64,000 bases of DNA from Paraspadella gotoi (taxonomy: Eukaryota; Animalia; Chaetognatha), in assembly GCA_051294375.1 (NCBI GenBank), contig CM119269.1, positions 1,628,537 to 1,692,536 of the forward strand, given 5' to 3'. Positions 11,701-35,131 of the stretch are shown in pieces (the first letter of the stretch is position 1; the number at the start of each line of letters is the position of its first letter). A model generated the notes under the pieces. The model made no database searches. It saw only the letters and a program-made list of their open reading frames with translations, and was not told the DNA's origin. A program made the position numbers and the translations under genes.

Positions 11701-12574
11701 CCATGGTTCTCTGGATCTTCCTCCCTTTCCTTCCTCCAATTTCCTCCAGTTTTGATTCGAGAATCAAACTCAATCAGTCGTCGTCGTTTTCGCCGTCGTT
11801 CCAGTCGTCGTCGTCGTCGTCGCTGGAGCGGGTTCTTCGTCGTGATTGGTCGAAAGGACGGATTATGATCGACCAATGATCGTCGCTGTCGAAGGAAATC
11901 GATTTGAAATAAGTTTAATTGGAAATAAAAAAAAAATCAGAACAATTTCGTCGTCATCCGTTTATTTGCGGTATATTCGTTAAAAAGTCGAAAAAATAAA
12001 TAATAAATAAGAAAAATTAATTAATTAAATAATTAATTCAAAAACTCACCCGAATCAAGGACGAACTGAATTCCCTAGATTCTTTAGACGGAGCGTTTCC
12101 TAATGATAAAGAAAGAGTCATTTATATATATATTATATATATATCGCAAGGAATGTTAAACTCCACCGTAAAATATAACCACAAGCGGAAACTTAAATTT
12201 TAAAAAAATCTGGGAGTAGAAGAACTAGAGAAATAAAAGACTAAACTGTGGCAAGAACTCAGTCCCGTTTACTTGCCACAAAATCTCGCATCCTTTAGGT
12301 AAATCCTAACAATAGTATTGGAGGTGAAAGAAGAAGACCGATGCTGAGAATAACTGGTGAAAAAGAAAGTAGAAGAGAGGTCAGCCTTGTGTGGGTAAAG
12401 GGAAGTTTAATAAAACGGAACGTAAAAATATAGAAATGAGGCAAGGGGTAGAAAGCGATACTATGGGTTCTCGGGTAAAAAAAAATGTTCTTTTGTTATC
12501 ATTCTTAAGGCTGCTGGTGCTTGGTGTGAATAGAAGGGAATTCTCGGCTTATTTTGTCGCCGTTTTCGTCGTTT

Positions 12575-12605
<31 letters not shown>

Positions 12606-13312
12606 TACTGCCTGCGTTTTACGCCCACGCAAAAATCAGCCGTGTGGAGAAAAAGGAAAAAAGGATGAGGAGGAAGAAGAGGAAGAGGAGGAAGAGGAGG
12701 AAGTCAGTGGAGAAAATCGCAGAAGAAACCCGGGAGAGAGAGGGAGAGAGAGAGAGATAGAGAGAGAGAAAATGTTTTCTAGATGAATTTGAATTTTAAA
12801 TTCCAAGTTTTTTTTTGTTTTTTTTTATTTCGTTTCGCGACGCAAATTTTAAATTTCGTTCTCGCGATTTAGTCGTTCGGCTCATCCTTTGATCTTAAAT
12901 GCAGTAGCAGTAGCAACGTATTGGATGTATTTCAAAGCCGTTTGTATTTTAGTAATTCATTCAAAATTTTAGTTTTTAATTATAGTGAAATTGGTTCAAC
13001 CAATATAAAAATTATCCCTTCATTTAATAAATAAGCTATCTTGTCCCTGACTTTTTACAAGCTTTGGTGGACATAGCATGTCCCTGCAAAATTTTTCATA
13101 CGAGTCGAAGTAAAATTCAAAACCACCGTTAAACTTAAACTTAAACTTAAACTTAAACTTAAAGGTAAAAAAAAATCATTCATTTTCAGTCTTAGAAAGA
13201 AGAGATTTTTGTTGTATTCAATGTTGAATGAAAATAGATTCTCGTAAAAAAGTCAAGTCTTATTCATACTTCTATTTTTAGCAACTGTATCTCCCTCTTC
13301 CCATATGGATTC

Positions 13313-13343
<31 letters not shown>

Positions 13344-16041
13344 TCTCTCTCTCTCTCTCGCTTTGTTTACGTCTCTTATCACCATTCGGCAAGTATTCCT
13401 TTGTCAGGGTCACGACCCGCTTCTATCTTTCTCCTTCTTCTTTTCGTCGCCAGAAAGTCGAGTTTCTTGCAGAATACGATCCATTTTAAAATCATCTTTA
13501 AGGTCATGTTAAGAAACTATATGCATGTTTACATGTAACAAAGTAATTAAGTATTAATTGAAAAGACTTCATAGGGACTAATAATCAAATGAATGTCATA
13601 GCTTTTTTTTTCATTTTACAGTTTTACCGTCAGTTAATTCGTCGCGTCTGAAGTCTTAGACATACTAGTCTTAGGCCGAGTCTTAATCTAAGTCTTAGGC
13701 CTAGTCTTAGACTTACTCTTCGTCTTACTCTTAGTCTAAGCGATTTTATTTTTATGGGCACTTTGAGATGCGAGACATACAGGGACTTCAATCTGGAGCG
13801 ATACGAAAATTCTTGATTAAACTCGTAGTTATTTCGCTGTATATTATTTTTATATCATTTATTAATTAGAAAACTATTTGACGTTCATGTTGACCTAAAA
13901 AAATGTTAAAATTTCTTAATAGTATAATCACAGTGGCTCTCAAGCGCGGAGTCACTTTTCTTCTTTTTTTTCGTCCAAATTTTAAAAGTTTTTAACAATT
14001 TAACAATTTTAAACGTTGATTGTAATGTTATCTGTTATAAAAATTAAAAGATTTGGTGATAAAAAGTTAGTTTGGTGATTTGTTATTATAAAACAAAATT
14101 CTCATATAAAACCTTACCTTTTTACTTAGTAACTATTATTTATCCACCTAGTCGTCTTTTGTAATTTTTTTCCCCCAAGCTGCAATTTTTATTTTGAATA
14201 GATTTTAAAGGGACACGTGATGATTATTATAAAGTATTATTCTTATTATGAAAAAAAAATTTGATTCTGTTTCGTGATACATTTACTACAGTATCTTATT
14301 AATCATAAAAATTAAGCATGAAAAAAATTTAATTGCTTTAAATATCAAAGTAAAAAATTGAAAAAAATATTTAGCTCGAATGTTACAAATTGGTGGAAGT
14401 CAAATATTTTTTTATTAGTATATAACCTGATTGCTCTTCGTTTCGATTATATTACATTGTTCGTATCAGTCCTGATTGAAGTCCCTGTAGAGAAGCCAAG
14501 GACGGAAGGAAACTCCTTTTTTTTCCCTTTTTTTAATGTCGATTTTGACCGATTTTTTTTAAAGAAGAGAAAATACTAAAAAAAAATGTACAGGACTCGT
14601 AAAATTTGTTAACTTGTGCCAATTTGAAGTTAATAATTTAATTATTTTATATGCAGATGATGCTACTAAAGAGTTGCAGTTTGTCCTAAATGTTCTAAAA
14701 TGTTCTAAAATATTCTAAAATGTTCTACGGCTCCTTGTCCTCGTTTTCATTTCTGCCTTTTTCCCTCCGAAGTCATTCCTTCATTGTTTTGACGTTTTTA
14801 CCGATTTTTTCTCTTCAGTAATAAGTGATTCCGATTTTTATCCGGATCTACTTACAGCAGATTCCGGCTCTACGGTTCACTTTGTCGGTGCGTCGGTCTC
14901 GCCCCAAAGTCTCGTCGATTAGTCACTTAGATCATGATTTATGATAAATTAGACCAAAAAAATTGATGTCCGTCTGTCTGTCCATACTTCTCTTTGTCAG
15001 TCCATCCGTCCATCTATCTGTCCGTCCCCCCTAAGCTTTGAACGCAAATTACTCATGAGAGTGTTGAGCGATTTTCCTTTAAATTTTGTATGTGTGTAGA
15101 AAAATGTGTGATTGAGCTGGAAATCAAGTTTCGATGAAATCGTTTAAATGAAAACGAGTTTAAATAAAAAAAACAAACTAACTAGTTCATTATTTGATTA
15201 AGCTTTTTTTTGTATATAAATGTAAATTCAAGCTGTATTATTTATTTATTAATTAATTATTTAACTAATTAATAAATAAATGATTAATTAATTAATTGAA
15301 TTAATCTCTTCAAACTCTTCCATTAATTATTTAATTAATGCAATTGTCTGAGTGGAAAAGAATTAAAATGAAAAAAAAAACGGTTTTACTATTAGAATAT
15401 GCTTTTTTCTTTTTTCATTATTTAAACAAATAGATAATTGTGAGCATTGTTTTCTCAATGCTCACACTTATTTTACAGCTTTTGTCGTCTTCGTCGTCAT
15501 TCGATAAATCAAAGTTATATTTGTCAATGTATTTCCCCTCTTCAATTCGTTCTCGCCATCGTCGTCGTCGTCCGTCGTTCGTCGTCGTCGTTCGTCGTCG
15601 ATTCCTTGGTTTATTCGCCGTCGACTTAAAATCTCTCTGTCTTTTTTATTCATTCTCGTCATCTTCGTCGTCGTTCGTCGTTCGTCGTCGTCGTCGTCGT
15701 CGTTCGTCCGTCGTCGTTCGTCGTTCGTCGTTCGTCGTTCGTCGTCGAGGGCGAAATTAATTTTGTTTTGACGCTTCTGTTGATTTGACGACGTTCGTGA
15801 TTGGCGTTAAGGCGCAAAAGCTCAGCTCCAATTAGTGGGGGGCGTAAACAAAAGCCTCTTGTCAAAAGCCTCTTGTCTAAGATCTCCTGAAAGTGTTCCA
15901 ACTAAATTCTTTGTCCGTTAGTATGAATTACATCTTATAGATATGTATAATAATATAGGGTTAAGTACGTATCTGTTTAGAGAGAGAAAGAGAGAGAAAG
16001 AGAGAGAGAGCGAACTGAAAAATAATCTAAATAACACAAAT

Positions 16042-16072
<31 letters not shown>

Positions 16073-16754
16073 CAGATTTACCGCATCGATCCGACGAGTG
16101 ACGGGCTTCGACGTCGTAGAATAAGTGAGGAAATTTTAGAGCGCCGCTGACGCCACTCACGCCACTCGTGACGCCACGTAAAGGAAGAACGCTGAGCACG
16201 GTCCCGTTACGCAGATGAATTACGCCACTGGATCAAAAAAAAAAGGATTTATGCGTTTTAAATCTTGAGTGATTATTAAGGCTCACGTTGTCATCAGTTT
16301 AACTGGTTAATAATGCGTATTAAATATAATTTAATTTAAAATATAAAAATAAAAATAATTTAAATTAATTTAAAATTTTAATGTGTTTGTTTCCTCGTGC
16401 ATCAAAACGCGATTATTACTAGATGAAAATCCAAAAAAGGGCATATTTTTCAAAAGCGCCCTATTTCAAATTAAGTTAACTCAAGTTAGAACAAAGAGTT
16501 GGGGATTTGAATTAAAGATTAGGGGTTAAGGATTAAGTTAAGGTTAGGGATTATAGTTAAGGATGAGATTAAATTAGGAAAATAGTGCCTGACAAATGTC
16601 ATTATTCCGTTGTCGAAGAGAGGCCGCTAAGGCGATTGATTACCTGAGTCCATGACAAGTGGAAATGGCCACCTCAGATTCGCTCAATGAGGCATCCTGA
16701 GATTTTACTGTCCCGTGGTAGTAACAGTTGGCAGGGCGCTGTTTGATTGAATTG

Positions 16755-16823: not shown

Positions 16824-17778
16824 AAATTACAGCCTCCAACAAACTTTCACTTCTCTTAGCGGCAACAACGACAGCACCATCGAACAGCAGGACAACCTTG
16901 TCGGAGGCGACGGCGAAGTTTGCGGCGAAGAGCCTTCGATTCAGTTCGAGGCGAAGGCGAAGACGACTTCCGCCCACCGGAAGGAGAAAGTGGGCGTGGT
17001 TGACGTGACCGCGTCCCTGAAAAATGAAAACTTTTTCCTTTATCGATGATATCCAAGTCACCTCGAAATTTCTTTTGGGTTAATTTTTCTTTCGCCGATC
17101 GGGGTTAGGGGGGGTTAGGGTTAAGGGTAGTTTAGGGGTAGTTTAGGATTAGGGGGGTTAGGGCTAAAAGCGTTTTTTTAATAAATATTTTTAAATAATT
17201 TTTCAATAGACGACACAACCCCGGTCGGCGAACCTTCGTCCCTGTTTAAGGTCACGGCGAATCAACCCTACATTCATACAGCAAAACACGATACGATTTG
17301 AAACTCGCTGGTTGAAGATAAGAAGTTCAATGTAAACCTTCATGATTAAATTCTAAAATTTAATATTCAAGACCAAGTCTTCCGCAACTTTTCAGACTTT
17401 TTGCACTTTTTGAACATCATGGCGAAATTTTGATTTTTGAGTCTAAGAGTTTTAACTGAAATTTGTTGAAATATCTTTTAAATCGATATATTTTCTATCT
17501 GATAATTTTAATTTTGTGTCTCTCCGTCACTCCGCTTGACTCGGCTCACTTGATTTTATTAAATTATCGCATTATATTTTGACGTATATATAAATGTCGC
17601 CCACCCTCTTCCGTGCTGAGGCCGTATTTCCTGTGACGTCCTCTGCCTTGCAAAGGATAAAGAATCTCCACGCCGTCGTCATCATCGTCGTCGTCGGCGC
17701 TGTTGAGATAATTTTGAACGGCGTCGATGATATCTGCATTGAATTGTCGAATCTCTTCTTTCTCCTCTTGAATCGCAT
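3325..17778 (-). CDS. ADAM-family disintegrin and metalloprotease, non-catalytic UNC-71/mind-meld-like; signal-peptide exon not located
   Basis: Prodomain exons 17605-17778 (EILYPLQ..GLSTEE), 16831-17016 (LRLELNRRLFAANF), 16644-16738 (CYYHGTV..AISTCHGL), 16082-16227 (PHLFY..DRCG) and 12050-12099. Exon 11580-11885 has a furin-like RRRR then RLRVAVFCH. Protease-domain exons 11183-11326 (VFNLVD..LRLVHFE), 6093-6167 (IW..TLQNF), 5942-6029 (HDAAILLT), 5286-5394 (DSICS..AHAFSHNL, one extra base) and 4428-4678 (GLRHD..CLM..FSNCS..CL). Disintegrin exon 3883-4136 (CGNGVVEGVEECDCG..ECDTPEFCDG) and Cys-rich start 3458-3564. Tentative terminal exon 3325-3401. The 17605/17016 junction is off by one base (microexon or error). 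Confidence 0.9.
4277..4424. repeat. 21-bp intronic minisatellite (TTTAAAAAGCCTTCTAATTCC) x7
   Basis: Direct tandem units abutting the ADAM donor at 4426-4427. Explains the KELEGFL and SLLIPLK ORF repeats. Confidence 0.95.
4938..5172 (+). mobile_element. Dispersed GC-balanced repeat (SINE-like or unclassified non-autonomous element), copy 1
   Basis: Shares long blocks (CCAGTCACTGGCGCGGTTACCCTAGGACGGTCTCGCTTTGCCAAC; GGAAGTCGTTAGGACTGTGGA) with the reverse strand of 41972-42281. Confidence 0.75.
5427..5905. repeat. (GA)n/(GAAA)n/(GTAA)n compound microsatellite
   Basis: Visible directly. Similar (GA/CT)n tracts lie at 16760-16818, 22945-23039, 28230-28305, 28445-28526, 29067-29170, 32641-32945, 33610-33680, 35275-35370 and 46336-46430. 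Confidence 0.95.
7533..10619 (+). CDS. XK-related multi-pass membrane protein (XK/Xkr/CED-8 scramblase family-like), about 860 aa, nested antisense in an ADAM intron
   Basis: Exons 7533-7949 (LDVLDMTTDI..Y; XK-like HVIVESFPQFLLQ), about 8263-8886 and 9081-10619. The second intron is canonical and in phase. Many hydrophobic segments. The first donor is not GT as assembled. Confidence 0.7.
10736..10781 (-). ncRNA. Minimal type I hammerhead ribozyme of the Penelope-like element (PLE) kind
   Basis: Minus strand reads AAGTG-CTGATGA-AGGCTT-gcacta-AAGCC-GAAAC-AT-GTC-ctactt. Intact CUGAUGA/GAAA core, helix II, palindromic helix III and GUC triplet; helix I is bulged. Confidence 0.8.
14955..15145 (+). 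mobile_element. Possible DINE-1/HINE-like non-autonomous element fragment
   Basis: GTCCGTCTGTCTGTCC-type microsatellite followed by ..GATTTTCCTTTAAATTTTGTATGTGTGT.. . Loosely similar GTCCGTCGGTC tracts occur near 8010 and 37875. Confidence 0.3.
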
Positions 17779-19456
17779 CTGAATTACAATTTGAAAGAAA
17801 AAAGGAGTTGAAACATGAATTAAAGAATGAATTAAAGGCGGGAAGACTTTTTTTAAAAAAAAGGAATGTGAAGAAGAGAAGAATGTTCGAGTAATTCTAT
17901 GCTTAAAAAATAATTATTTTTAGATTCAATTGTATACCAAATTTTGGTAAAATTGTACATTCACTGTTTAGGATATTCTTAATCCTAACCACCCTTAACC
18001 TTAAATTCCCTTAACCTTAACGAAACTTTCTTTTTCTTTTCTTGTAGTATCAAACCCCGGAAATAATATATGCGAATGAAAAAATAACCAACTGGATCGG
18101 TTCCAGTCGGCGAAAGTAAAATAGTACCCGACTTTTCAATTTCACTAAAAAAAAAAAAGATGAAAGTAACAGAGCTTAAGAGATTAAAACCAATTAAAAC
18201 AAATAAACTATTGTGATATTTGGATTTTGTATTTTTTCATTTCACCGTAAAGAGAAACCGCACTGGAATGGTATTACCGGTGCCTGAAGTAAAAATTAAA
18301 ATTGCCCAAGGATATTAAACAATACTTAGTATTGTCCTATCTAAAATATTCTTTTTACTATTCGAATTCTTTTTTTTATATTTGAGGTGCAGAATACGAT
18401 CATCAATTCCGCTTTTCTCACTTGTCTATATGTCAAACATTTTATATATTATTTTAAATCAACAACGTTATGGATCCTAAATATACTTATGATGATATGG
18501 TCGTACATCCTTACTCAGTCTTAGGCAAATAAATTTGAAAATTGTTTTCAGAGGCAAACTGTATTTTAAGAGGTGAGACATCATTGAAATTGATGGAGAT
18601 AGCACATACAATATAACTTAAAATAAATTAAACTCTCTCATTTCAGTCTATTTTTGATAACGTGCAATTCAAATTATATCAAACTTGTAACGACAAGTAA
18701 GCCGAGATAAAAAATATTTGCAAACACTTCCGATTCTGGTTAAATAAAAATTTACCGATTAATTTACCTAAAAGGAAAAAATTGAAAGGATTACAGTAAA
18801 GTATATTTTCTACATATTTCCATACAGTTTTACAAACACTTTATTCCAGTTTCTTTAAAATTCGCAAAAAAATAAGAAATTTTATCATCAAAAATATGAA
18901 AAACAAATAATACAGAGGGGTTAAATTTAACAAGTTTTACAATAACTATTTCCACTATGTGATATGTACCAAAGGAAGAATACTGCCACAGGGGAATAGA
19001 AAATATTTCGATTTTAGAAACTGTTCATTTCTTCATCTCTGAAAATTGATAATATCGACATTTAACAGACTAGAGAAAAAGTATAAATATAATTTCTCTG
19101 GGACTTCATTCAATGACCACAATTTTTTTTTGGATGTGAGAAACCTTCAAATAACAGTTTCTCTTTTGATGTCAACTTGTGAACTCTATCGTGATAAATG
19201 TCATGTATTATCAGAGATAATAAATTATAAAAACATGTAAACAGGATTAAAGTCTGACAAGGAACAACATTTTCCTTTTTTTTTTGTTATATAACAAAAG
19301 TCGACATGTTCTCGATTTGCACCCATCGGATCGTTTTTTTGTTTTTTGAAATAAAAATTTTGATGTCAATAGCTAAGGCTTTTAAGGAATGTATATCGAT
19401 GGTATAAGAATTCACTTTTTCGGTAATGTAAAAAGCAAAAAAAAGCGCCATCGTTT

Positions 19457-22307
19457 TCATTGCGACACCGCCCTCAGGATCGCGTGAACTTCCTCGGCGA
19501 CGGCGGCCAACACAAACTCGAACTGCTCCCTCGTCCTGACGAGGTGCATTCTTTGATCCCTCAGATGTTCCAGAGTGGCGGCGATGTCGATTTCTTTAGC
19601 ACCCTTGTTGATACGGTTGAGCACCATATCCAACAAAATGTAGGTACCGGTTCTCCCGCAGCCCTCGCTGCAGTGAACGACAACCGGACATGCTCTCGAC
19701 CGATAGGACTTATTAACTTTTCTTCTAAAGTCCAAAAGCGCCTTGGTCGATCGCGGAACGCTGTTTTCCCTCCACGCCAAAAAGTGGAACTGGGTCACCG
19801 TACGGGTCTCCCCAGTGTGGAGGTTTTTTAAATAAAAGGATCGAACAAGAAATTCGTCGCACCAGACATGCTCGGATACGAGATGGACCTCATAGATGTG
19901 GTAGACGTTTGCTCCATCCTCGGGCCAGTACTGAGCGCACACGTGCTTGCCACTTTCGACTAGTCTAGTCAGCATTACAATAACGGTGCACCCTTGTTCC
20001 CAGATCATCTGCCAAAAGTCCGCTGTGGTGTGCTGCAACGGCCCTTGAGTGGCGATGTAAGCTGGACTTCGCGGGTCGTGGTCGAATATCAAGGATGCAT
20101 TGATGTATTCTCGACCGTTGACACTTAGGGCATTATTTAGGATGACTCTCGAGTGATCGTAAGGCAGAACGTCAGCGTATCTGTTCGTGGCCGAGTTCTC
20201 GGGTCTCGACGCGATTTGAGTGGAGCATGGGTCTGCCTCATACGCGCAAAGGCCCTCCCACTCTAGCATGAGGCGATCCTCATTTCTTAGATGATCTTCC
20301 ATATAGGCAAGGATGATATGACCTGTACTGATGTCCATGTTGGACACGACAGGTTCCTCGCTCCAAGAGGCGCCATTCCTCTGTTTAGCGCCATTCATCA
20401 TCGGGCCACCGCCCGACACGGTGGACCCGCCGTAAATGCTGGATGCTGCGGGACTAGCCCGACCAGTGGGTACGGGAGTGCTCCTCCCTTGCCTGGCGGC
20501 CACTGCCGACGTGTGAAGCTGCTCTCCTTTCTCGGCGCCCTGGTTCTGCATCCGCTGGCGGCAAAGGTCCTGGTAGTCTTTGTGCGGCTCTGTCTCGTTA
20601 CTCGAATCCGAAAGCCGTCGCAGTTTTGCCTTTGAACTTTCATGCCGTTTGATGGCGTAAATGGTGAGGGTGCCAATCACTCCAGCGGCGCCGATACTGC
20701 ACAAAACAAAAGAGAGCGAGGCAAATCTCGAATGCCGCGGGTGTTTCTCCACCATGTCGACCTGAGTCTTGTTTCCTAAACCATGCCCTATAATGCTCAG
20801 TCCCATGCCTTTTGTAACCAGTTGCTTCTTTTCCACGGCCTTTTGAATCGCCACGCTGGCATTCAGAGGAGAGCCCTCGTTCATGCGGAACGTCACCTGT
20901 GGCCCTCTTACGTTCACGTCTCGGAAATCGTTGGAGGAAATTCCGAGGACATCAGCGAGGTTGCGAAGGAGTAGGATTCCCTCGGCCTCGTCCTTAAACC
21001 TGCGATTGACCGTCAAATACCCGTAATTGTTTTGACGGTTTTTTGAGGAACCCCTACCGCGGTTCCTCTCTGACTGCAGGTTGTTTTGCCTGCCCCTCCC
21101 CGGCTTATCCGAAGAAGGCGCCTTCCCGTACGGCCGTCTCCCTCCGTGCCTGGAAGAGCTGTCTCCCTCGACAAAAGCTTCCGCGGAGGCCCCAAACACT
21201 ACGGCTTCCGTCTTTCCATTGTTTATCTTCAGCTCGAATTCCTTCAGCGGTATCTTCTCCCCCTTCAAACCCTTCCCCACCATATGAGCGGGAACGAAGG
21301 CGAACTTGTCGAGATGCCCGCCCTTGCGCAGATGCTCCTTGATGGGGCCCCACTTGCCGTTCTTCATTTCCGCCTCGTAGATCTCGTTCCCTTCTGGAGG
21401 GAGGTTGGGGGGATCGCCGAGAAACAATTCTTGTGAACCTGGTTTCGTCGATAGCGATGGGACGCCTCCTGGCGGATCATTCAGCTTCAACCAATCCAGC
21501 CCTCCCTCGATCCCGGCGGGATCCTCCAGGGTCGGGATCCCGCTCTCGTATCCCGTTATTTTCCCGTCCGTGTCGCGCTTGACCTTTTCGAAGATCTTGG
21601 CGACGGCGATGGCGGCCTTTACCTTCCCGATGACCCGGCCGCCCGGGTCCCTGACCTCGTGGGACTTTCCCACGTCGGAAAAGTTGCCCATGACGAAGAC
21701 GCGGCTCTCCCCGGTCTCCTTGGCGTCGCCCGATGGCTTGTAGGCCTTGCCCGTCAGCATGGCCTCCCAAATCTTGAGCAGCTCGTTCTCCACCGACTTT
21801 TCCTTCTTGCTCTCGTCCTCGTCTTCCTTCTTGAGCTTCTCGGCCGAACTCATCGGCGGCGCCTCGTTGCCGAGCAAGAGTCGCATCCCGCGCACCACCT
21901 CTTCCAGCTGCTTGCGAGACAGTTGCCTGGTCTCGTGCTCGATGTTCTGTACAGGGTGTAGAAAGGGGTTGGATGGCGAAGATAAAAAGAGAAAGAAAAG
22001 TAAAAAAAAAAGGGTGGGGAAAATAAAAAAAAGAAGAAAAGAAAAAAAAAACGAAAAAGAAAAAAAAACACGAGAGAAGGAAATAAAATGTATTCAGAAA
22101 AGGGAATTAGCAAAAAATTGTCGGTAAAAAAGAAAAGGAAAAAAGGGGAAAAATAAAAATGGTTTATAAACGATTTTATTGTCCATAAAAATTATATATT
22201 TTCAATTTTTACCTGTCCAGCCATTTTCTTGGCAGATAACTCGGCTAACAGAGCAATTGTGGCTGCAGATATTTCTCCCGGTGGAATATTCACATCATCA
22301 TCGCTGC

Positions 22308-22379
<72 letters not shown>

Positions 22380-22942
22380 TATAATAATAATAATAATAAT
22401 AATAGTATCGATTTGATGTAAAATTTGTTTAACAACGGTACTCACTTAGACGTCTGGGACCCTGACCACTTAGGTCTCCGACCTGAAGAAAAAGTTTTGT
22501 TTTCAACAAGTCCATTTTTAACTTTTCTATATTCTTAATAATTAACACCAACCTGGATGAACTGGGGATTCTGAAGTTTGAGAAGTAAGGTGGTTTTGAA
22601 AATTTTGTGGCGCTGTATCTGGATACTGCAGGTTTGTCCTTCCACTCTTGCTGGTACTTAAGTCGCCCCCATCACCTAAGAATGCAATTATATTGTTAAT
22701 TTTTTTTAAAAAATGATCGAACGAATTATTGTCCAGCTTTGAAATGTTGATCTTCCTTGTTCATCCGCGAATTACCTGGGAAATCCAAGTAGTCAAATGT
22801 ATCAGCACCATCTTCAAGTTCATGAAATTGCTCTTCACCACCAACTCCATGATATTGATTGATGGGATTTTCAATTGCGTGCCCTGAATTAGAAAGAGTA
22901 TTATAAATAATAAAGTGTGGCCGCAACAAGTTTCAGAGATTC

Positions 22943-23041
<99 letters not shown>

Positions 23042-25300
23042 CCTCCGCCCTACCTTGCGGGTTCGCGCCACGGACGTAGCTTAGAAGCTCCTTTGCTTCC
23101 GATAGGTCAGAGTTTCTGTTGTCTACCGGTTTGGCGTAGTAGGTTCGGCCGCCGCCGCGGTCCGCGCTGTGCGGGACTCGATGCCGCGCGGCCTGGGTGT
23201 CGGAGAACGAGTCGTAGTAACCGTCCCTGTAGTCATCGTCATTGTCGTAGTTGGCCCATCCGTCAGAATTTGAGGGATACCAACTGTCGACGAATCTGAA
23301 AAAAAAAAAAACTTGAATTAAACTAATTTAATTAGTAATATTGATTGAATTTCATTGAAATTCGGATGAGAGCAATTACAAATTTGAAGACGACACTGCA
23401 CATTACTATCGAACTATTGTTTTTTTTTAAAGATTTTATAATAAAATGTCTTATCACCTTTGATTTTGTGGGGTTCGTGATCCTTGTCGGTACTGATGCT
23501 TTTGGCGATCCATTCCGTTGATTCCCTGTATTTCATCTCTGCCACTCATTTTATCCATTTTATCCATTTTATCCATTTCATCCATTTCATCCATTCTATC
23601 GGAAGCGGAGGTTCTTCCTCGCCCCCTTTCTCCCTCCTCTTTGTGGCTCGAACCTTTTGATTTTAAAAAAAGAGGTAAAGTCAACTGAGATGGAATCAAA
23701 TGAAATTGGTACAACCAATATAAAAATCATTCATTCATTTAATAAATAAGCCATCCTGCCCCTGATTTTGGACAGGCTTTGGTGGTTTTAATTCCCCCAT
23801 CACTATTACAAGATAATGACACGCAGGTCCCTTTCAATCAAGACTCTCACAGTCTCGTTTATTCACTCCAGAGTACCTGGCTTCCCTATCAATGAAGTGG
23901 TATAATGTTTCAAAGAATGTTTCAATTGTATGAAAGACCACTCCCTCAAGTATTAGATCGGGGAATACTATATTGTACTCCGCCAAGCATCAAAATTACA
24001 AGGAGCTAAATTTTCATGAAATATTTTTGATTATTTTATTTAATAAAAAAAAGTATTGTCATAAAAATAAGATTTGAAAGGTTCGATGCCATCTTACCTT
24101 CGGTTTCTGCAGCTGAAGCAGCGACAAAAAGTCGCCCATGTCTCCGCCGCCGCCGGATGCTGCGTCCCTCGCTCTGCGCGCCCGTCGTTACGGTTGTGCT
24201 GCAGCGAGCGCTTGGACGGTTCGTCCGAAAACTCGACGGCGTCGTCAGATTTGTCGGTCGGCGCTCGCGTCTGTCGTTCGAGGAAAGAGAGGCCGTTGTC
24301 GGCCAACGAGTCGGCTTCGTAGCCGGGGATGCTTCTTCCTCTTGGCGTCGTCGTCGGCGCCGGCGTTGACGGAGCGCGCGGGGCGTCGGTGCTCGTCGTC
24401 AAAGTACCCGTGATCCGTCAGCATCTTGTCCAGTCTGGCGATAGTCGCGGCTCGACGGCGGCGGACGCTGCGGCGCCACCTTTTGGACCTCTTTGGACTC
24501 GGTGCAGTTGTCGTGAAGGTCCTTGACCGTTAGATCCTTGTAGACCGGGTTGCCCATCCAGCTCGAGGATGCCGCGCATCAACGCACTGAGATGAGATGA
24601 GATGAGATGCAAAAAGAATAACAAAAAAATCGATGAATAATTGAAATTCTATAATTTTTGTTTTTTCCTGAATTCCTTCTCAATTGAATTCGCCAATAAT
24701 TTTTAATTTGCGAACGCGAAATACGTCGTCCAACAACTTTGATCAATCGACTAACGAGGACGTCCAAATTGACCAATCAAAAAAGCGAAGAAAAAGAATC
24801 ACCTGCGTAAATCCATCTTTCCAGGTAAAAGATTTTTGCATCAAAAGAGAAATCTCGGCCTCGAGCAGTTCCAGCGTGTCCGAGTCGAGATCCAGTCTCA
24901 AGGGGTGCTTGTGCAGCTCTTTGTTCAAGCATTGCCCGAACAGGTTGTCCTCTAGACAAACCTGGGGTGGGGGGGACGAGGGAGGAAAGTGGAGGAAAGA
25001 AGAGAAGAGGGAAAAGGAGATTAAAAAAATAAAGAAAAGAGGTGGAGGAAAAAGTGAAAGAGAAGGGAAAGAAAAGTAGAAATGAAAGAAAAGTAAAGAG
25101 AGGAAAAATGGGGATAAAAGAAAAATTCAATTAAAAAAAAAAAATGTATTCCGTTGTACTACGGTGTACGGACAAACTCCGACACCGCGAAAAAAAAATT
25201 AGGTGACCATTAGAAAAAAACTTACCTCACTTTTGTCACAAAGGTCTCTGGAACTGAATTTGCAGCCTGCAAAAGAACGAAAAGGATGGAAAGGGAGAGG

Positions 25301-25345
<45 letters not shown>

Positions 25346-25717
25346 AATTAAGACAACATTTTTCTATCGCCGTCGATTCCCTCCCACGCGCGGTCTCATC
25401 TGTTCTTGAACGCTTTCCCAAAATTACCCACACATTGATGCCCACATTGATTGCCCACACTCATCCGTTCCAACCTCTCGTCCACACTCACCGATCTTCC
25501 CGGGAATCCATTGAGAAGCCTCCGCGTTGTCCGCGACGACGACGACGACTATCGCGACGACGACGACGACGAGCAACTGGACGAACGGGGCGACACTAGA
25601 GGGGGTGGAACGGCGCGAATACCCAAGCGGCGACGTCGGCCCGGCTTCACGCCGAGACCACGAACCGGCGTCGGTCGGCGGGAGGACGTGGAGGCGGCGT
25701 CTCCGAAGCGGCGTCAT
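19457..25717 (-). CDS. PTPRN: Receptor-type tyrosine-protein phosphatase N/N2-like (IA-2/phogrin/IDA-1), dense-core vesicle pseudophosphatase
   Basis: Exon 25492-25717 carries the signal-like [17 protein letters not shown]. Exons about 25226-25266 and 24803-24961 give RESP18-like [30 protein letters not shown]. Then about 24098-24587 (frameshifted), 23458-23653, 23054-23296, 22777-22883, 22553-22675, 22446-22482, 22213-22303 and 19457-21946. The last exon has ectodomain [48 protein letters not shown] domain [11 protein letters not shown] and the C-terminal [15 protein letters not shown]. Confidence 0.95.
22308..22403. repeat. (AAT)n microsatellite
   Basis: Visible directly, inside a short IA-2 intron; source of the poly-Asn ORF. 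Confidence 0.95.
23705..23945 (+). mobile_element. Dispersed non-autonomous repeat family; other copies at about 25775-26045, 12988-13090 and 8935-9035
   Basis: Shared blocks TTTAATAAATAAGCYAT..CCCTGA, TTACAAGATAATGAC..GCAGGTCCC and GGCTTCCCTATCAATGAAG. Confidence 0.75.
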
Positions 25718-26997
25718 GATTGAGGATTCGCTTTCTGTTTGTCGCGGGGGGGGATTGTATAATTATGAAATTGAAACAACCAAAATTATTGATTCTTTAA
25801 ATAAATAAGCTATTTTGCCCCTGACTTTGGAAACTGGACACTGGACACATTGGACACATTGGACACAGTGGACAGGCTATAGTGATTTAAGACCTCCGTC
25901 ACTCTTACAAGATAATGACATAGCAGGTCCCTGCAAGACTCGCTCACAGTCTCGTTTTTTCGCTCCCAGAGTAGCTGGCTTCCCTATCAATGAAGAGGAA
26001 CCTATCATTTTTTAAAGAATGTTTCAATTGTTTAGAAGGACCTCTCCCATGATGGAGAAGAATGAAAGACAAATTTAAGAAGAATGAAAAAAAAAGAAAG
26101 ATACGAGAGAAAGGAAATAAGGAAAAAGGATATAAATTATACTTAAATGTTTGAGTCGAGAATGATAAACTGTTTTAATTGAGGGTGATACAGATTTTGG
26201 CTAAAATTGACTCTGACCCAAAGTTTCGTTTTGATTTTATAATTAAGAAGGAAATTTTGTAATTAGAAATTTATTACTTTCAAAGTTAGATTGAGTGCGG
26301 GAGAATAAGTTAAGATTTCGGAATCTCTTTGATGCCATAAATGAAAGTTCTGACATTTAATCTTGTTTCTCGCAATTTCCAATTCCACCCACGACATTCT
26401 CGTATCAATTTCTCCTTTTCCATTTCGCTTTCCCACTTTTCCACTTCAATCAGCAACTTTAATTCTCCCCATTTCATCTTCTAGTTCTCATTCACACTTG
26501 TTAATTTCATCGTTTCCTTTTATCCGCCAGACGTAATGGCTCACACTGGCTGCCGCCATTCGGTCAAACGACTCGTCTTAATCTCCTCGCGCCCGCTCGA
26601 ACCACATAGAGGCCGTTGTTTCTCTTCATTAATTTGTCGGCCAGTGAATCGCTTTCTCTCCGTCTTTCCCTTCTATTCTCGTATTATTTCCATAAGATGG
26701 GCTTTTTTTTTAGAATGAAAACATCGAAACAAAAGAAGCGGACTTGATCAGAGAGAGAGTTATTTTCGTCGGAGGGAGGGCGAGAGACGCTGTTTAGTTG
26801 AATCGTTGATGAAGCTGTCGAACAGAAGCGGCGGCGGAAGCGGCGGCGGAATCGGCGGCGGCGGTGGCGGCGGAGGAGGAGGAGGAGGTTGAAGAATCAA
26901 ATCTTTGTTGTACGGGATAGAATAGCGTTGTAAAAATTCTAAATTTAACTTTAATTAAAATTCTTTGTGGTATAATCCTTTCTTTTCGTTGTGTAAT

Positions 26998-27146
26998 AAT
27001 TAGAAGAGTTTGAAATGAATTTTCAACAACGATTTTATTTTTAAACTTTTTAATGCTGATGAAGGCTTGTAGTTAAGCCGAAACATGTCCGTTTTTTATT
27101 AAAAATAAAATCGTTGTTGAAAATTCATTTCAAACTCTTCTAATTA
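26998..27146. mobile_element. PLE pseudo-LTR remnant: ~47-bp near-perfect inverted repeat bracketing the hammerhead
   Basis: AATTAGAAGAGTTTGAAATGAATTTTCAACAACGATTTTATTTTTAA is the reverse complement of about 27099-27145. Confidence 0.7.
27051..27094 (+). ncRNA. Minimal type I hammerhead ribozyme of the PLE kind
   Basis: TAATG-CTGATGA-AGGCTT-gtagtt-AAGCC-GAAAC-AT-GTC-CGTT. Core boxes intact; helix I is AATG/CGTT; predicted cleavage after GTC at 27089. Confidence 0.85.
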
Positions 27147-27704
27147 AAATTCTAAAAGTGAGGAACGAACAACATTATACTAAAAAATTTTATAATAAAT
27201 TTTCAATTTACTCAGAAGGCCTTACTTAATTTAGTAATAATCCAATAAATATTAAAATTTCAAAATATTTTTTTTGTCAGATTTTTTTGCAGTTTTGGAT
27301 TCGTGATGAAAAGTTGATATAAAGAAGTATAACTCTTTTTTAAAAATTCAAATATAAAAAAGAACCTATATTTTAAATTGAAAATTAAAATTTTATATAT
27401 TATATATAGTTTTTTTAATTTTTAACTCAATGAAATATTTTTTTAAAAATGATTTAGATTTTATAAGGATAGTACTATATATAAATATAGCCTACTGCGA
27501 AAATTGAAGAATATAATTTTTTTTTTACAAATTAATGTTCACTGATGGTATGTTGTTCAATGTTCAATGTTCATAATTAGCATTTAGAATTTTCGAATGA
27601 AACTCTCACTACGCTCTAGTGTATAGTATATAGTGTATAACTTGTAGAAGATTTAATTCGGGATCCGGCCCAGTCCGTCCTTCTTATCAAATCCTTATCT
27701 CCGT

Positions 27705-28224
27705 GTGATGAATTGATGATGAATTGATGAATGAATTGATGACGAATTGCTTGATCCCTTATTCTTCATAAAATATAAAGTCAGTTGTGACCGTTGGTTG
27801 TCACGGCAACGAAAAGCGACCGTAATTCTACGCCTCGTTTGTGACCAAGACGACGACGATAACGAAGCTCTTCTCCCCCACACAATCTCATTACATCCCT
27901 CCCTCCCGCCGTTGATGTCTTCATTCCAATTCCATTATCCCATATTCCCATTCCATCAGAGAGCATGGTGATGAACTTGAATGAATATTGATGAATGAAT
28001 TGATGACGAATGCTTGATCCCTTATCCTTCATAAAATATAAAGTCAGTTGTGACCGTTGGTTTGTCACGGCAACGAAAAGCGACCGGTAATTCTACCGCC
28101 TCGTTTGTGACCAACGACGACGACGATAACGAAGCTCTTCTCCCCCACACAATCTCATTACATCCCTCCTCTCCCGCCGTTGATGTCTTCATCCAATTCC
28201 ATTATCCCATATTCCCATTCCATC
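27705..28224. repeat. ~270-bp direct tandem duplication
   Basis: About 27705-27958 is repeated at about 27985-28224 with small indels. Confidence 0.85.
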
Positions 28225-28253
28225 TCTTTTTTCTTCTCTTCTCTCTCTCTCTC

Positions 28254-28297
<44 letters not shown>

Positions 28298-29064
28298 CTC
28301 TCTCAGAATCCATTTTTTCTGAGTTGAAGAAAAGATTTTATGTAATGGAATTTTTTTTTTTTTTTTATTAGAAATTTTTGTTTGTGGGTGAAGCAGAGTC
28401 TAGGAGTCCTGAAGCTGAAGCCTGGAACCGAGGACCTTTGGAACTCTCTCTCTCTCTCTCCTCTCTCTCTTCTCTCTCTCTCTCCTCTCTCCTCTCTCTC
28501 CTCCTCTCTCCTCTCTCTCTCTCTCTGGTCCGCCCCGCCCTCGTTTTCCCAGTCATAAAAAATTCCCCGCTGGTTTTTCTCACCACGCTGGAAAGTCATT
28601 ATGCGGTGAAGAGGAGGCGCGTGAGGCGCGGCGTCCACCCGCTCNNNNNNNNNNNNNNNNNNNNNNNNNCCCCGCCGTGAGAAGCGATCGGCGAAAGAAA
28701 AAAACCTCGAGCGAGACAGAGTGACTGGGGAATCTTAAAAGAGGAGGGAGAGAGAGCGAGACGGAGACAGCGATGGAGAGAAACCGTTCGTGCAGGATGT
28801 ATCGTTTCTGAGGTTCGAGAGTTTGTATATTGTTTCGTAAAAAAATCTGGAGGACGAGTTGTGAAGAAATGCTGTCGAAATCGTTCACGTGAACCGCGGT
28901 GTAATCCAAGAAAATTGTGATGAAATAGAGAGGAAGGCGAAGAAACGAAGAAATTTAGAAAAGAAGAAAAGAAGAAATGGAGGAAATGGACTTTGGCGTT
29001 CGAGAGGAGAACAACGACAAAATGGAAGACTATCGTGGAGCTGGAAACGCGCGAGAGCGAGAAC

Positions 29065-29173
<109 letters not shown>

Positions 29174-29956
29174 GCGCGAGCGCGTGAAAGGAAGAGGAGA
29201 AGGAAGAAGAGGATGCTGGAGATGATGGAAAGGCGTCGATTCCATTAGGAATCGCGAAAAAAATATTAATAACTTAACTTTAATGGAATTAAATTTATTA
29301 TTAAAAAACGTATTGCCGAGCTTATTCTCTTTTTAAAAGGAAAAAAAGAGGCAATGGAATAAATTAATGCCCGGAAGTGAAAAAAAGCTGGTTGAGTAAT
29401 TGTCTGATGTATCATGGAAAATGAATTTACATGAAACTTCTTGAGTTAATAAACATATCTGTTACGTAAAAAGATTCATGATTAGAAACAACTTTTCGTG
29501 GAATTAATTCTCACATCATACAGTATGATTTTTTTCGTTTGTCACATTTCCTGTGGAAGTATCTCAGAATCCCTTAACCCTAGAGACTTGAGTTATGGCT
29601 AATTTTGTAGCCCGCCGTCTGGCATTTTAGAATATATCAATTTTTATATAATTCTAATACGTCATTAGTATTAACTTCTTGGCCCCAATGTGATGAATTT
29701 GTAGACCAACTTATGATTTCTTTCACAAAGTTACAATCAGTTAAAACTTAGGTAAATTTAAAAGATATAGTATGCAAAATGTTGCAAGATATATATACAT
29801 ATGTTATGAAGGAGAAAAAAATAAAAGGGAAGGTGAATGGATGAATGAATAAATGATTGAATGAATGAATAAACGAATGAATGAATGAATAAATAAATGA
29901 ATAAATGATTGAATGAATGAGTAAACGAATACAGGAACGAAAAAAACGGTTGTGAA

Positions 29957-29997
<41 letters not shown>

Positions 29998-31074
29998 GAG
30001 AGAGAGAGAGTGACTGACCTGTTGTTAGCAGAGGCCATTGAAGAGAAGGCCCCCGATCAGTTCCTCCACTCCTGGGGTGGGGGTTCTGAGCGGCTCGATC
30101 TTCGCCAGCCTCGTTTCGCCTCAGCGCCACATCGAGGCTTCCGGTCCCAATTTTGTTCTTTTATTTTTTTTTCCTTTTGTCTTTGCGGAATTTTTCTTTC
30201 TTTTTTGAGCATCGATGCTGTCATTTGAAAAAAGGGAAAACTTATTAAACAGGCGTTCGATCTAACGTGAGTGAAAACAACTCGGAATAGCAATTCAGTG
30301 CTGTTGGCAACCGTTGGCAACAGTTGGCAACTGTGGTGCGTCGCTTTAACTTTTTTAATTATTTTTTAAAAAATATATGATTAAAAAATATAAAATAAAA
30401 AAAATATTCCATAGTTAATCGATCATCATTATCGCCAATATAGTATTCTAATTAACTCAGTATAAAATGTATAAAAAAGAATTTTTGTTATCAAAATTTG
30501 TAAATTACTTTTTCACTATTTTCTATTTTTATATTTTAATATTTTAATATTTTTATGAAGGATTTACTATTTAATCTATATTATTTAATCAAATATATAT
30601 TTCTTTCTTTTTTAAAAATGTTTTATTTATCTAATAATTCAATTTGGGAAGGGGAAGTCAGTGTTGTCTTCTGGAAATAGAAGGAGCATCTATACAACAC
30701 AAGGTTAGATTACTATCTGTCCTAGTTTTCTAATAGATATCACACATCATTTCTGTTAGAAAGTCATTAATGAAAAATTATAATATCTAAGAGGTGGGAA
30801 TGGATAATTTTTTGAGGGGGGACCAATGTTATATATGATTTTTTTTTTACCAATAGGGATAAGACTACCATGTAGAATTGTATGTTCTGATAGGGATACA
30901 TACTGGGGAAAGGTCTATAGGGGTACCTTTATGTCATGAATATAATTTTAAAATACTTTAATCAAAATTATATTTTTTCTTTATGCTACATTTTAATTAT
31001 TTCTTTTTTGAATATTTTTTACGGTTATTATATTCTTAAGAAATTATAAGAATAATTATATAAATATGAAGCAA

Positions 31075-31456
31075 ATGCATGTAGTAGGGAATTGCAATAT
31101 TTTCACCCCGCCTATAAGCACGACACCTTCAGTCATAACCTGGTTGATCATTGAATAATACCATCAGCCCTAAGGGAAGCGTGAGGACGTTCGTAAGCCT
31201 CGAGCCTGGTTCCAAGCTGCAATGGAACAGTTTCTGGGTTTTGGACCTGTCTTGAAGGCTTTCCACGCCCCCAAAGGGGTTATAGCCGTCCTCACACTTC
31301 CTGCAGGTTAGGTTCCATTGGGATTCGATCACGGTACCTAAAGCTCATCAATGAGTCATCATGCTGATGGTATTACTCAATGAGCCTCTGGGTTACGACT
31401 GAACGTCTCATGCTTCTCGGCGGGGTGCACATGTTGCAATGCCCGACTACATGCGT
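31075..31456. other. ~380-nt fold-back element: long imperfect terminal stem with a branched, pseudoknotted core (structured RNA or long-TIR MITE)
   Basis: 31075-31168 pairs with 31363-31456; 31174-31189 pairs with 31287-31302; CAATGGAAC 31220-31228 pairs with GTTCCATTG 31312-31320. Confidence 0.6.
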
Positions 31457-32667
31457 ATCAAATCAACACATAACATATATAAATTAACTGTTGACCAATT
31501 ATCAATTAAATTGATTTAATATTGTAAAAGTTTTGGAATATAAAATGTATGAACAAAAGATAAATCGAGAGACAGACCGACCAAAAAGTAACTTATGAAG
31601 TTGCTCTGCGAGTATTCGCGGCGCAATCGTTTATAGAACGTCCAAAGAGGAGAGAACGATCGCTAATCCTTTCATGGTTTTACTTTTATTCGCCATCTGG
31701 CGGTGAGACGGAGTCCGTCACTAATGATTCCTGACCTTCGGGCATTAAGCGGTTAAACGTAATTAGTATTTAGTCCATTAGAAAACTGTATAATGCAGTA
31801 TAAAGTGAAATATGTACTTTATAAACTTAATATATATTCCCATTTCATACATACTTTTGACAACTAATTTACAGTGACGCAATGAGCAGAAGTAGCTCCC
31901 GTGATTTTGAGAAAGAAAATAAAGTACTACCATTTATAGTTATATAGTTTTCTATACATTTATTTTACATATGTATCGTCAAAGATTAGCCGCTTGTTCA
32001 CCTTTTACCATCGCACACAAAATTACGTTCTCTCCTTTTGTATGACGTCATGGAAAAATCAGGGAAAAGTCGAAAAGTAAACCAAAGATTTTTTTTTCAA
32101 AATACAAAGCGAATTTAAACATAATGTGGACAAAATGAGAAACCATTCAAGGACAAAGATTAAGGATGAAAGAAAAAGCTGAAAAGTAAAGACGAAGAAA
32201 AGAAACAGAAGAGGAAAATTCTTTTTTTTTTTTTTTTTTTTTGCAATATTTTTCGAGCGATTTGACGCAAAAGCGTCCTCTCTCTTTTTTTTTCTTTCTT
32301 GACGCTCACCGACCTGGCGTCACCGTTGATCGTCGTCCACATCGTCACCGTCGTCGTCGTCGAAGCACGGCTACGGGGCGTCGCATATTTTTTCGCTCTC
32401 GTTTCCTCTTCACGGATCGCGATTGGACGATCGATCGGCGGCGAGCGACGCTGATTGGACGGTTTTTGTCAGTATCCGGCTTCCACGTCGCCGGGCGGAA
32501 CAATATGGCGTGAAGGCCAGGCTGCGAGGAAGAGGAGGGGGAAGAGGAGGAGGTGAAAGATGCATCGAGCGGCACGAGCGCAAACGCTTCAGCGATCTCG
32601 GATTGTGGGCGGAAAGGTGGGGGCGGGGGACGTTGTTGTGGAGAGAGAGAGAAGAGAGGGAGGGAGG

Positions 32668-32736
<69 letters not shown>

Positions 32737-32769
32737 GGAGGGAGAGGAGAGAGAGAGAGAAGGGAGGAG

Positions 32770-32818
<49 letters not shown>

Positions 32819-33605
32819 AGGAGAAGAGAGAGAGAGAGAGGAGAGAGAAAGAGAGAGAGAGAGAGAGGAGAGAGGGAGGGAGGGAGGGAGGAGGGAGGAG
32901 AGAGAGAAATAGGGAGGGAGGGAGGGAGGGAGGGAGAGAGAGAGACAGGGAGGGAGAATGAAAGGGAAAAGAGAGAAAAAGAGGGAAAAAGAGAATGGAA
33001 AATATAGAACGATTGAGAAAAGAATAATGTGATGATAAAACAAAAGGCACTGGTGATGACAATGACATTTTCAGAAGAGAAAAATCATGCGAGTGATAAG
33101 AAAATAAATTTACCGTCTGTACATAAAAACAATTAAACTAATTACCTGGAATGATTTTGTTAACGAACACAGATTTTCTATCCTGGGTAAAAATTTAAAA
33201 ATTCAATATGGCGACCGAAAATCAAGCGCGTTGACAAGGCGTAGAAGATTTTATACGTACGTATGACTCATGTTTCCTCCAACCTTTGACAAAATTCCAA
33301 ATGTGTTTATTCAGTGATTAATAATCACTTTTTGATATTTGAAGAAAAAGTAATTTTTTCAACGAAGAACAGCGTTTAATATTTTTTTAATATTTTCTAC
33401 TAGCAAACTGTCATATAAGTAATAATTAGAGTTTCCTAGTTAAATAATTCTCACGAAAAGACGATCCTATGAAACGTATTTTTTGACTAAAAAATTTAAT
33501 TAGTTCCAAAAATTACTTTAATAGAAACCGGAAGTTATGAATTTACAAATATTTTTTTTTAAAATTGGGTACGAGTCTGTTATCTTTCATAACCGAAGGA
33601 CGTTT

Positions 33606-33681
<76 letters not shown>

Positions 33682-35097: not shown

Positions 35098-35131
<34 letters not shown>

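What the first reader, a model, noticed from the sequence alone, without database searches (positions are those of the whole stretch)
17605..25733. The ADAM lacks its own signal-peptide exon: IA-2 is nested on the same strand, or the two genes share one leader exon
Seen: the most 5' ADAM exon found (17605-17778, g|AT GCG ATT = DAIQEEKEEIRQFN..) starts in phase 1 near the beginning of the prodomain. Only 1.7 kb of AT-rich DNA separates it from the IA-2 stop, and I see no ATG-plus-hydrophobic exon there. The IA-2 signal exon (25492-25717) ends in phase 1 (AAG ATC G|GTGAGT), so splicing it to 17778 gives an in-frame secretory ADAM (..[24 protein letters not shown]..). Known: ADAMs need a signal peptide, and shared-first-exon loci exist (unc-17/cha-1). 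Inference: two unrelated neuronal pseudo-enzymes could be produced from one promoter and one leader exon by alternative splicing and polyadenylation. Alternatively IA-2 sits inside ADAM intron 1, with the phase-1 donor near 28583 as a candidate upstream exon.
Basis: partly seen in the sequence, partly recalled or inferred. Interest (0 to 1): 0.8.

Follow-up and report, generated by a model that had tools for sequence, protein, structure and literature searches.

The report
IA-2 nested inside ADAM's first intron
An animal's IA-2 secretory-granule gene lies whole, on the same strand, inside the long first intron of an ADAM membrane-protein gene; a spliced sequence contig joins that ADAM to its own far-upstream exon, predicted to encode the signal peptide, so the two genes likely do not share a leader exon, and this is an uncommon but known nested-gene layout.

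Summary
In detail: ADAM exon 17778-17605 starts in phase 1, no leader exon lies between it and IA-2, and IA-2 exon 1 ends in phase 1. The headline idea (shared leader exon) is not supported. One spliced contig of run X1 crosses the 17778 acceptor. Its upstream 32 letters match window 63524-63555 exactly, not IA-2 exon 1 and not 28583. That exon (ATG 63614, phase-1 donor 63524) encodes a short hydrophobic leader. So ADAM intron 1 spans 63523-17779 (45.7 kb as assembled, about 36 kb without duplicated sequence). It holds the 11-exon IA-2 gene on the same strand and a radial-spoke-head gene on the other. IA-2 exon 1 ends in the motif typical of IA-2 N-termini, so it is IA-2's own. The phase match is a known bias of signal-peptide exons. 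Evidence is one run of contigs, so rare leader-swapped isoforms, in frame in both directions, are not excluded. IA-2's last exon (2.49 kb, 59% of the coding sequence) has no introns, which fits published selection against splice sites in same-strand nested genes. The scan had not reported this pair; an unchecked note describes another nested-gene host in this genome.

The parts
63524..63614 (-). ADAM exon 1, coding part: ATG, 13-residue hydrophobic core (predicted signal peptide), phase-1 donor GTAGGA. In-frame stop 4 codons upstream of the ATG. The contig holds 226 letters upstream of the acceptor, so about 135 nt of 5' UTR (to about 63749) if continuous
17779..63523 (-). ADAM intron 1: 45,745 nt as assembled, about 36.2 kb after removing 9,533 nt of second copies; contains 5 N gaps
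17605..17778 (-). ADAM exon 2, start of the prodomain (EILYP motif as in UNC-71-like relatives)
16897..17016 (-). ADAM exon 3; the contig lacks one genome base near 17011 (likely assembly indel) and leaves the genome at 16897
   Evidence: tables 5, 5c, 8
3458..16738 (-). Further ADAM exons (prodomain, metalloprotease-like, disintegrin 4136-3883, cysteine-rich 3564-3458). Zinc motif reads HAFSH instead of HExGH (5316-5286, next exon from 4678). The 3' exons are not found in the window
25492..25717 (-). IA-2 exon 1 (long n-region, hydrophobic core, ends G-K-I before the G-C of exon 2), phase-1 donor GTGAGT
22213..25266 (-). IA-2 exons 2-10 (cysteine-rich N-terminal domain and luminal pro-region); exon 4 carries several frameshifting indels, the exon 5 acceptor is uncertain
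   Evidence: joint 22213-21946
19454..21946 (-). IA-2 exon 11: 2.49 kb without introns; luminal segment, Receptor_IA-2 domain, transmembrane helix, PTP domain, stop
   Evidence: (record 6 unbroken 21946-19276)
18554..19453 (-). Likely IA-2 3' UTR; contig cover ends at 18554, 776 nt before the ADAM exon 2 acceptor; the only AATAAA is at 18845
   Evidence: records 5 and 6
35135..45420 (+). Radial-spoke-head-like gene (PF04712), multi-exon, antisense inside ADAM intron 1; part of it recurs at 46840-55408 as a likely assembly duplicate

Best explanation
The ADAM gene starts with its own exon at 63614-63524, predicted to encode its signal peptide, and a spliced contig joins that exon across a 36-46 kb first intron to exon 17778; the complete IA-2 gene lies inside that intron on the same strand and likely uses its own promoter, leader exon and poly(A) site. 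Shown: the exon 1 to exon 2 joint in one contig, and the gene order in the assembly. Inferred: polymerase making ADAM pre-mRNA must read through the antisense radial-spoke gene and all 11 IA-2 exons, skip them, and pass IA-2's poly(A) site, while IA-2 is made separately from an internal promoter near or upstream of 25717. Both products are predicted type I membrane proteins with altered catalytic motifs (an UNC-71-like ADAM and an IA-2/PTPRN-family protein). Also inferred: the loss of introns from IA-2's 3' 59% reduces the decoy splice sites that the ADAM transcript has to ignore.
For:: X1 record of 1148 nt (depth 10.6) covers 17780-17604 and 17010-16897 with 224 further letters upstream; it is the only record laid on 17705-17870 (1 of 1); its 30-letter loose end equals window 63526-63555 letter for letter, and the 2 letters before also fit. 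A 19-letter part occurs once in the window at up to 2 mismatches, 0 of 100 shuffles. The same exon came up before the RNA result in a scan of 2126 minus-strand GT sites (hydropathy 3.95, donor GTAGGA). IA-2 exon 1 ends G-K-I before G-C: G-x-[IVL] stands there in 57 of 87 homologues, and the E that the ADAM exon would give in 0 of 87. The IA-2 contig (4438 nt) has 1688 letters upstream of 22290; the modelled exons including exon 1 give 1633, and without it 281 letters are unexplained. IA-2 and ADAM exons 2 onward lie on one stretch without N, 1007-28644. Nested genes often lie in the first intron (PMC11694760, passages); long phase-1 introns follow signal-peptide exons (PMC7259759, passages).
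Against: One run, one study, assembled contigs; its RNA status is the tool's guess, though the joints follow GT-AG introns. Contigs drop rare variants. I did not lay the IA-2 contig on its exon 1, so that link rests on length and motif. No DNA reads were available to test the assembly, which has indels, 5 gaps in the intron and duplicated blocks. With its own leader the IA-2 cysteine motif starts at residue 76, against a median of 30.5 in 88 of 120 homologues (only 1 at 60 or later); the ADAM leader would put it at 31. No signal-peptide predictor was available; the call rests on hydropathy and alignment.
Confidence: 0.88

Rival explanations
1. Leader swapping as a minor route: the IA-2 promoter and exon 1 sometimes splice to 17778 and act as an alternative first exon of the ADAM.
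For: In frame; the IA-2 exon 1 donor scores like the ADAM exon 1 donor (7.5 and 7.9, rough matrix); only 7.7 kb to skip; contigs drop rare variants.
Against: The single record at the acceptor comes from 63524 and is not broken there. It would put the prodomain motif at residue 113, against 22-60 in 15 of the 17 relatives where the motif was found (100 and 151 in the other two; 68 with the ADAM's own leader). Phase agreement is expected for any two secretory genes.
Confidence: 0.05
2. Sharing in the other direction: ADAM exon 1 (63614-63524) also splices to IA-2 exon 2 (25266), so one promoter and one coding leader feed both genes, with the choice made by splicing and by IA-2's poly(A) site.
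For: In frame; gives an IA-2 N-terminus of typical length (motif at 31, median 30.5); IA-2 exon 2 is a phase-1 acceptor that ADAM pre-mRNA passes before its own.
Against: The junction residues do not fit IA-2 (0 of 87 homologues have E before G-C). The ADAM contig runs unbroken from exon 1 into exon 2, which a strong branch should interrupt (inference from how contigs are assembled). IA-2 has an intact leader exon of its own.
Confidence: 0.04
3. Assembly artefact: IA-2 is not really inside the ADAM gene, and the scaffold is misjoined.
For: Unpolished assembly: frameshifting indels, N gaps, about 9.5 kb of duplicated sequence within the intron. No whole genome or DNA run was available.
Against: IA-2 and ADAM exon 2 lie on one gap-free stretch, and contig cover runs from IA-2 to within 776 nt of the acceptor. 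The RNA joint agrees with the order and orientation of the two ends of the scaffolded intron. Wherever exon 1 lies, it is not between IA-2 and exon 2.
Confidence: 0.02
4. ADAM exon 1 is joined to exon 2 in trans, from separate pre-mRNAs, so the polymerase need not cross IA-2 in one go.
For: An unchecked note (e1-10588163) calls this an arrow-worm genome; in one chaetognath nearly half the genes are trans-spliced to leaders (PMC12460157, passages).
Against: Same strand, right order and ordinary GT-AG sites make cis-splicing sufficient. Published chaetognath trans-splicing adds short non-coding leaders, not coding exons. I did not establish the taxon.
Confidence: 0.01

Closest known systems
Same-strand nested gene pairs of Drosophila (Lee and Chang 2013, PMC3814207; passages read) and mammals (PMC11694760; passages read)
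   Same: A complete protein-coding gene inside a long 5' intron of a host, same orientation; the host also carries an antisense guest.
   Different: In Drosophila 71.27% of nested genes are antisense and 72.53% of same-strand ones have a single exon; here the guest has 11 exons, is an old conserved gene, and both genes begin with phase-1 leader exons that are frame-compatible with each other's second exon.
C. elegans cholinergic locus unc-17/cha-1 (PMC3875643; one passage read)
   Same: [quoted passage not shown]
   Different: There the two share a 5' untranslated exon. Here each gene has its own coding first exon, and no shared exon was seen.
UNC-71/ADM-1-like non-catalytic ADAMs (PMC11266112; passages read)
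   Same: Best hits of the disintegrin exon are an ostracod ADAM and nematode proteins, one labelled Unc-71; shared prodomain motifs; the catalytic Glu is replaced.
   Different: Keeps all three zinc-site histidines with Ala for Glu (HAFSH); UNC-71 is listed as QSIGH, the ostracod protein reads HMIGH. Identity is only 39% at best, on a long branch.
IA-2 / PTPRN / PTPRN2 family
   Same: PF11548 plus PF00102, transmembrane helix, N-terminal cysteine motif; 49-59% identity to IA-2 proteins of many phyla.
   Different: 11 coding exons with a 2.49 kb last exon, against 23 exons in human and mouse (PMC3671108, passages); E instead of the usual D in the HCSxG motif; a luminal segment with no family match.

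Membership tests
Same-strand nested gene pair | Host exons on both sides of the guest are joined in one transcript | tested here: met
   63524 joined to 17778 in one X1 contig
Same-strand nested gene pair | Guest lies wholly within that intron, same strand | tested here: met
   IA-2 25717-18554, minus strand, gap-free with ADAM exon 2; assembly not checked against DNA reads
Same-strand nested gene pair | Guest has its own first exon and shares none with the host | tested here: inconclusive
Same-strand nested gene pair | Guest has its own promoter | not testable with these tools
   Needs CAGE, 5' RACE or chromatin data
Shared-first-exon locus (unc-17/cha-1 type) | Both mRNAs begin with the same exon | tested here: not met
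   The ADAM contig begins in 63524-63555, not IA-2 exon 1
UNC-71-like non-catalytic ADAM | Signal peptide, prodomain, metalloprotease-like, disintegrin and cysteine-rich domains | tested here: met
   PF00200 1.4e-19, PF08516 3.6e-9, full-model blastp to E 3e-62; signal peptide by hydropathy only; EGF and transmembrane exons not found in the window
UNC-71-like non-catalytic ADAM | Catalytic Glu of HExGHxxGxxHD replaced | tested here: met
   HAFSH, with the other two His kept; an assembly indel lies just upstream, not inside the motif
UNC-71-like non-catalytic ADAM | Groups with UNC-71 rather than other ADAM clades | tested here: inconclusive
   FastTree, 28 rows (27 of 49 hits plus the model): groups with the ostracod and nematode rows, support 99, long-branch warning; no ADAM11/22/23 or ADAM12-type rows by name in the set
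IA-2/PTPRN family | Receptor_IA-2 ectodomain, one transmembrane helix, single PTP domain, N-terminal cysteine motif | tested here: met
   PF11548 7.8e-14, PF00102 1.3e-78; motif found; named IA-2/PTPRN hits
IA-2/PTPRN family | Acidic residue in the P-loop (HCSDG) associated with lost activity (that association is recalled) | tested here: inconclusive
   Window has HCSEG; D in 108 of 120 homologues, N in 1, no motif found in 11; activity not testable

The most novel reading that the evidence does not exclude
The locus is a two-way leader switch. Two promoters each carry a coding, phase-1 signal-peptide exon, and two gene bodies each begin with a phase-1 acceptor, so all four joins are in frame. 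In some cells the ADAM leader would feed IA-2 (giving it a textbook-length N-terminus), or the IA-2 promoter would make the ADAM without crossing 36 kb, and IA-2's poly(A) site would set the ratio of two unrelated membrane proteins.
Probability: 0.08. Interest if true: 0.72.

Novelty: new member of a known kind. Interest (0 to 1): 0.28.

Why it matters
It corrects the gene model: the ADAM has a normal secretory N-terminus 45.7 kb upstream, and annotation that stops at IA-2 would truncate it or fuse the two. As biology it is a modest case: a conserved 11-exon gene nested on the same strand, the class that is under-represented in Drosophila and thought to be selected against because of mis-splicing. 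Both leader exons are frame-compatible with both bodies, and the guest has no introns in its 3' 59%, so the locus is a ready test of how a host transcript skips a whole gene and whether nesting drives intron loss.

Tried and rejected
No whole genome is held for the window, so other copies and flanks could not be searched. No listed run is on record as RNA; X1 is a guess. X2 and X3 gave only short repeat-like matches. 18284-18466 had no contig cover; not used as evidence. A search with ADAM exon 2 alone found no protein (33 candidates, none at E 1 or less). A phase-1 donor near 33692 that I first favoured was rejected by the loose end. The idea that IA-2 is trans-spliced to a leader at an AG just before its ATG got no support: both AGs score below all 18 training acceptors (-4.0, -9.5), and the 55-nt remainder of the contig is uncertain by about 30 nt. 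That matrix is rough: sites picked by eye, 2 of 17 donors set one base off. Rfam: 0 matches in the window. A 45-row tree did not finish and was replaced by a 28-row FastTree. Atlas searches of the IA-2 luminal segment and of the antisense membrane gene gave nothing usable. Synteny in other animals could not be tested: the genome collections are prokaryotic or viral. Literature: 'IA-2, mind-meld, nested' (15 of 211 listed, all off topic), 'PTPRN, ADAM23, synteny' (1 paper, listing only, off topic), shared-first-exon terms (12 of 708 listed, none relevant by title); no earlier scan finding on this pair. These searches cover open-licence papers only; no supplements were read.
Full report
Observation. 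The window is animal DNA with short introns and many microsatellites. On the minus strand, IA-2 runs from an ATG at 25717 through 11 coding exons to a stop near 19455. The last exon carries PF11548 (7.8e-14) and PF00102 (1.3e-78), and the best hits are IA-2/PTPRN proteins of molluscs, arthropods, annelids, hemichordates and fish at 49-59% identity (120 of 3924 hits listed). Downstream by 1.68 kb, exon 17778-17605 opens an ADAM in phase 1.

The deciding evidence. One public run, X1, holds half of the sampled words of 16000-25900. It is kept as contigs and its RNA status is a guess, but its joints follow the predicted introns. A 1148-nt record covers 17780-17604 and 17010-16897 and has 224 more letters upstream. 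It matched the AG at 17780-17779, whereas IA-2 exon 1 ends in CG. Laid on 17705-17870, this was the only record (1 of 1), and its 30-letter loose end is identical to window 63526-63555. A 19-letter part occurs once in the window, 0 of 100 shuffles. A scan run before this result had listed the same exon, ATG 63614 to donor 63524, among the two leaders with a strongly hydrophobic core and a consensus donor; the other was IA-2 exon 1. An in-frame stop lies 4 codons upstream of the ATG and the DNA beyond is GC- and CpG-rich. The ADAM therefore has its own first exon.

What the intron holds. Intron 1 is 45,745 nt as assembled. Self-comparison finds 38272-46814 repeated at 46840-55408 and 57458-58817 inverted at 62166-60793, at 83-93% identity with many gaps and next to N runs. 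I read these as uncollapsed assembly duplicates (inference), leaving about 36 kb. Inside lie IA-2 on the same strand and a radial-spoke-head-like gene on the other (PF04712: 4.1e-43, 7.7e-25, 9.4e-6 in three exons). IA-2 and ADAM exons 2 onward are on one stretch without N (1007-28644).

Whose exon is 25717-25492? It ends G-K-I, and exon 2 continues G-C. G-x-[IVL] precedes this G-C in 57 of 87 homologues; the ADAM leader would supply E, seen in 0 of 87. The 4438-nt IA-2 contig has 1688 letters upstream of 22290; exons 1-10 from the ATG sum to 1633. Both points say it is IA-2's own leader, though I did not lay the contig on it. Against this, its n-region is unusually long: the cysteine motif starts at residue 76, against a median of 30.5 (range 3-85, 1 of 88 at 60 or later), and the ADAM leader spliced to IA-2 exon 2 would be in frame and put it at 31. 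This keeps a reverse-sharing isoform open.

Why the phases match. Phase-1 introns are in excess near signal-peptide cleavage sites (PMC1626468, passages), and long phase-1 introns near the 5' end are enriched in brain genes with signal peptides (PMC7259759, passages). Two secretory genes in tandem will therefore often be frame-compatible without sharing anything.

The proteins. A 530-residue ADAM model, with X at frameshifts and unmodelled gaps, hits nematode and ostracod ADAMs best (E to 3e-62). Its zinc motif reads HAFSH with the later His residues kept, so the catalytic Glu is Ala. The review PMC11266112 (passages) lists UNC-71 and ADAM11/22/23 as inactive by substitutions at this site. A FastTree of 27 of the 49 hits places the model with the UNC-71-like rows (support 99, long-branch warning, no ADAM11/22/23 or ADAM12-type rows by name), so 'UNC-71-like' is likely, not proven. 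The name mind-meld for the arthropod group is recalled. IA-2 has HCSEG where 108 of 120 homologues have D; that this position marks lost activity is recalled. Neuronal expression was not tested.

Mechanism. Shown: the exon 1 to exon 2 joint and the layout. Inferred: ADAM transcription crosses both guests, and splicing skips 11 same-strand exons and one poly(A) region whose contig cover ends 776 nt before the acceptor; IA-2 has an internal promoter. Nested genes are reported to cause exonization and premature polyadenylation of hosts (PMC3192792, abstract only; PMC11694760, passages), so some interference or separation by cell type is likely. In Drosophila 71.27% of nested genes are antisense, and 72.53% of same-strand ones have one exon; the authors propose selection against mis-splicing (PMC3814207, passages). 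In mammals the two orientations are broadly similar in number. IA-2 here has 10 short introns in its 5' part and none in a 2.49 kb last exon that holds 59% of the coding sequence and is unbroken in the contig; human and mouse IA-2 have 23 exons (PMC3671108, passages). I did not map intron positions, so 3' intron loss and its link to nesting are inference.

Comparison. The unc-17/cha-1 locus shares a 5' untranslated exon (PMC3875643, passage); the defining feature, a shared first exon, was tested and not met. The locus is an ordinary-type nested pair from the rarer multi-exon, same-strand class. I found no paper on IA-2 nested in an ADAM (open-licence library only). Unchecked notes on this genome mention a tubulin gene hosting 14 antisense genes and call the animal an arrow worm; I did not verify either. 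If right, fast rearrangement in that group (PMC12460157, passages) would make such nesting less surprising. Chaetognath leader sequences were read in PMC2481426 (passages); the trans-splicing idea for IA-2 got no support.

Verdict. Interest 0.28. The two-way leader switch remains possible at about 0.08.

Noticed in passing
window 21946-19454 (-): IA-2's last exon is 2.49 kb without introns while its 5' part has 10 introns of 70-444 nt; looks like 3'-biased intron loss.
   Followed up: partly
window about 21455-21170 (-): A luminal segment of IA-2 with no Pfam or Atlas match is about 91% identical over 94 residues in one unnamed relative (P0170), while the linker after it has diverged: a likely lineage-specific conserved domain. 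P0170 ends abruptly in a way that could be read-through into an intron that the window gene lacks (guess).
   Followed up: partly
window 38272-55408 and 57458-62166: An 8.5 kb tandem block and a 1.4 kb inverted block at 83-93% identity beside N gaps; likely uncollapsed assembly duplicates, which give a second partial radial-spoke gene.
   Followed up: partly
window 7518-9800 (+): A three-exon antisense gene for a hydrophobic, cysteine-containing membrane protein inside a later ADAM intron; no Pfam match, no usable Atlas hit.
   Followed up: partly
window 500-3270 (+): Exons of an antisense gene with a transmembrane helix and a tyrosine-rich tail lie just past the last ADAM exon found (3458); the ADAM's remaining exons were not found in the window, so this is probably another guest.
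   Followed up: no
window 28584 (-) and 28670-29080: A consensus-like donor after a GC-rich stretch and a 25-N gap; not used by the ADAM contig. Could be a non-coding first exon of IA-2 or another unit.
   Followed up: partly
window 46290-47100 and 54900-57060 (+): Exon-like pieces of a further plus-strand gene, partly duplicated, inside ADAM intron 1; not identified.
   Followed up: no
window 24586-24098, 17011, about 5317: Frameshifting single-base indels in coding exons; the one near 17011 is absent from the contig, so the assembly is unpolished.
   Followed up: partly
window 63706-63630 (-): A short upstream reading frame appears to end in the stop just before the ADAM start codon (read by eye).
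   Followed up: no
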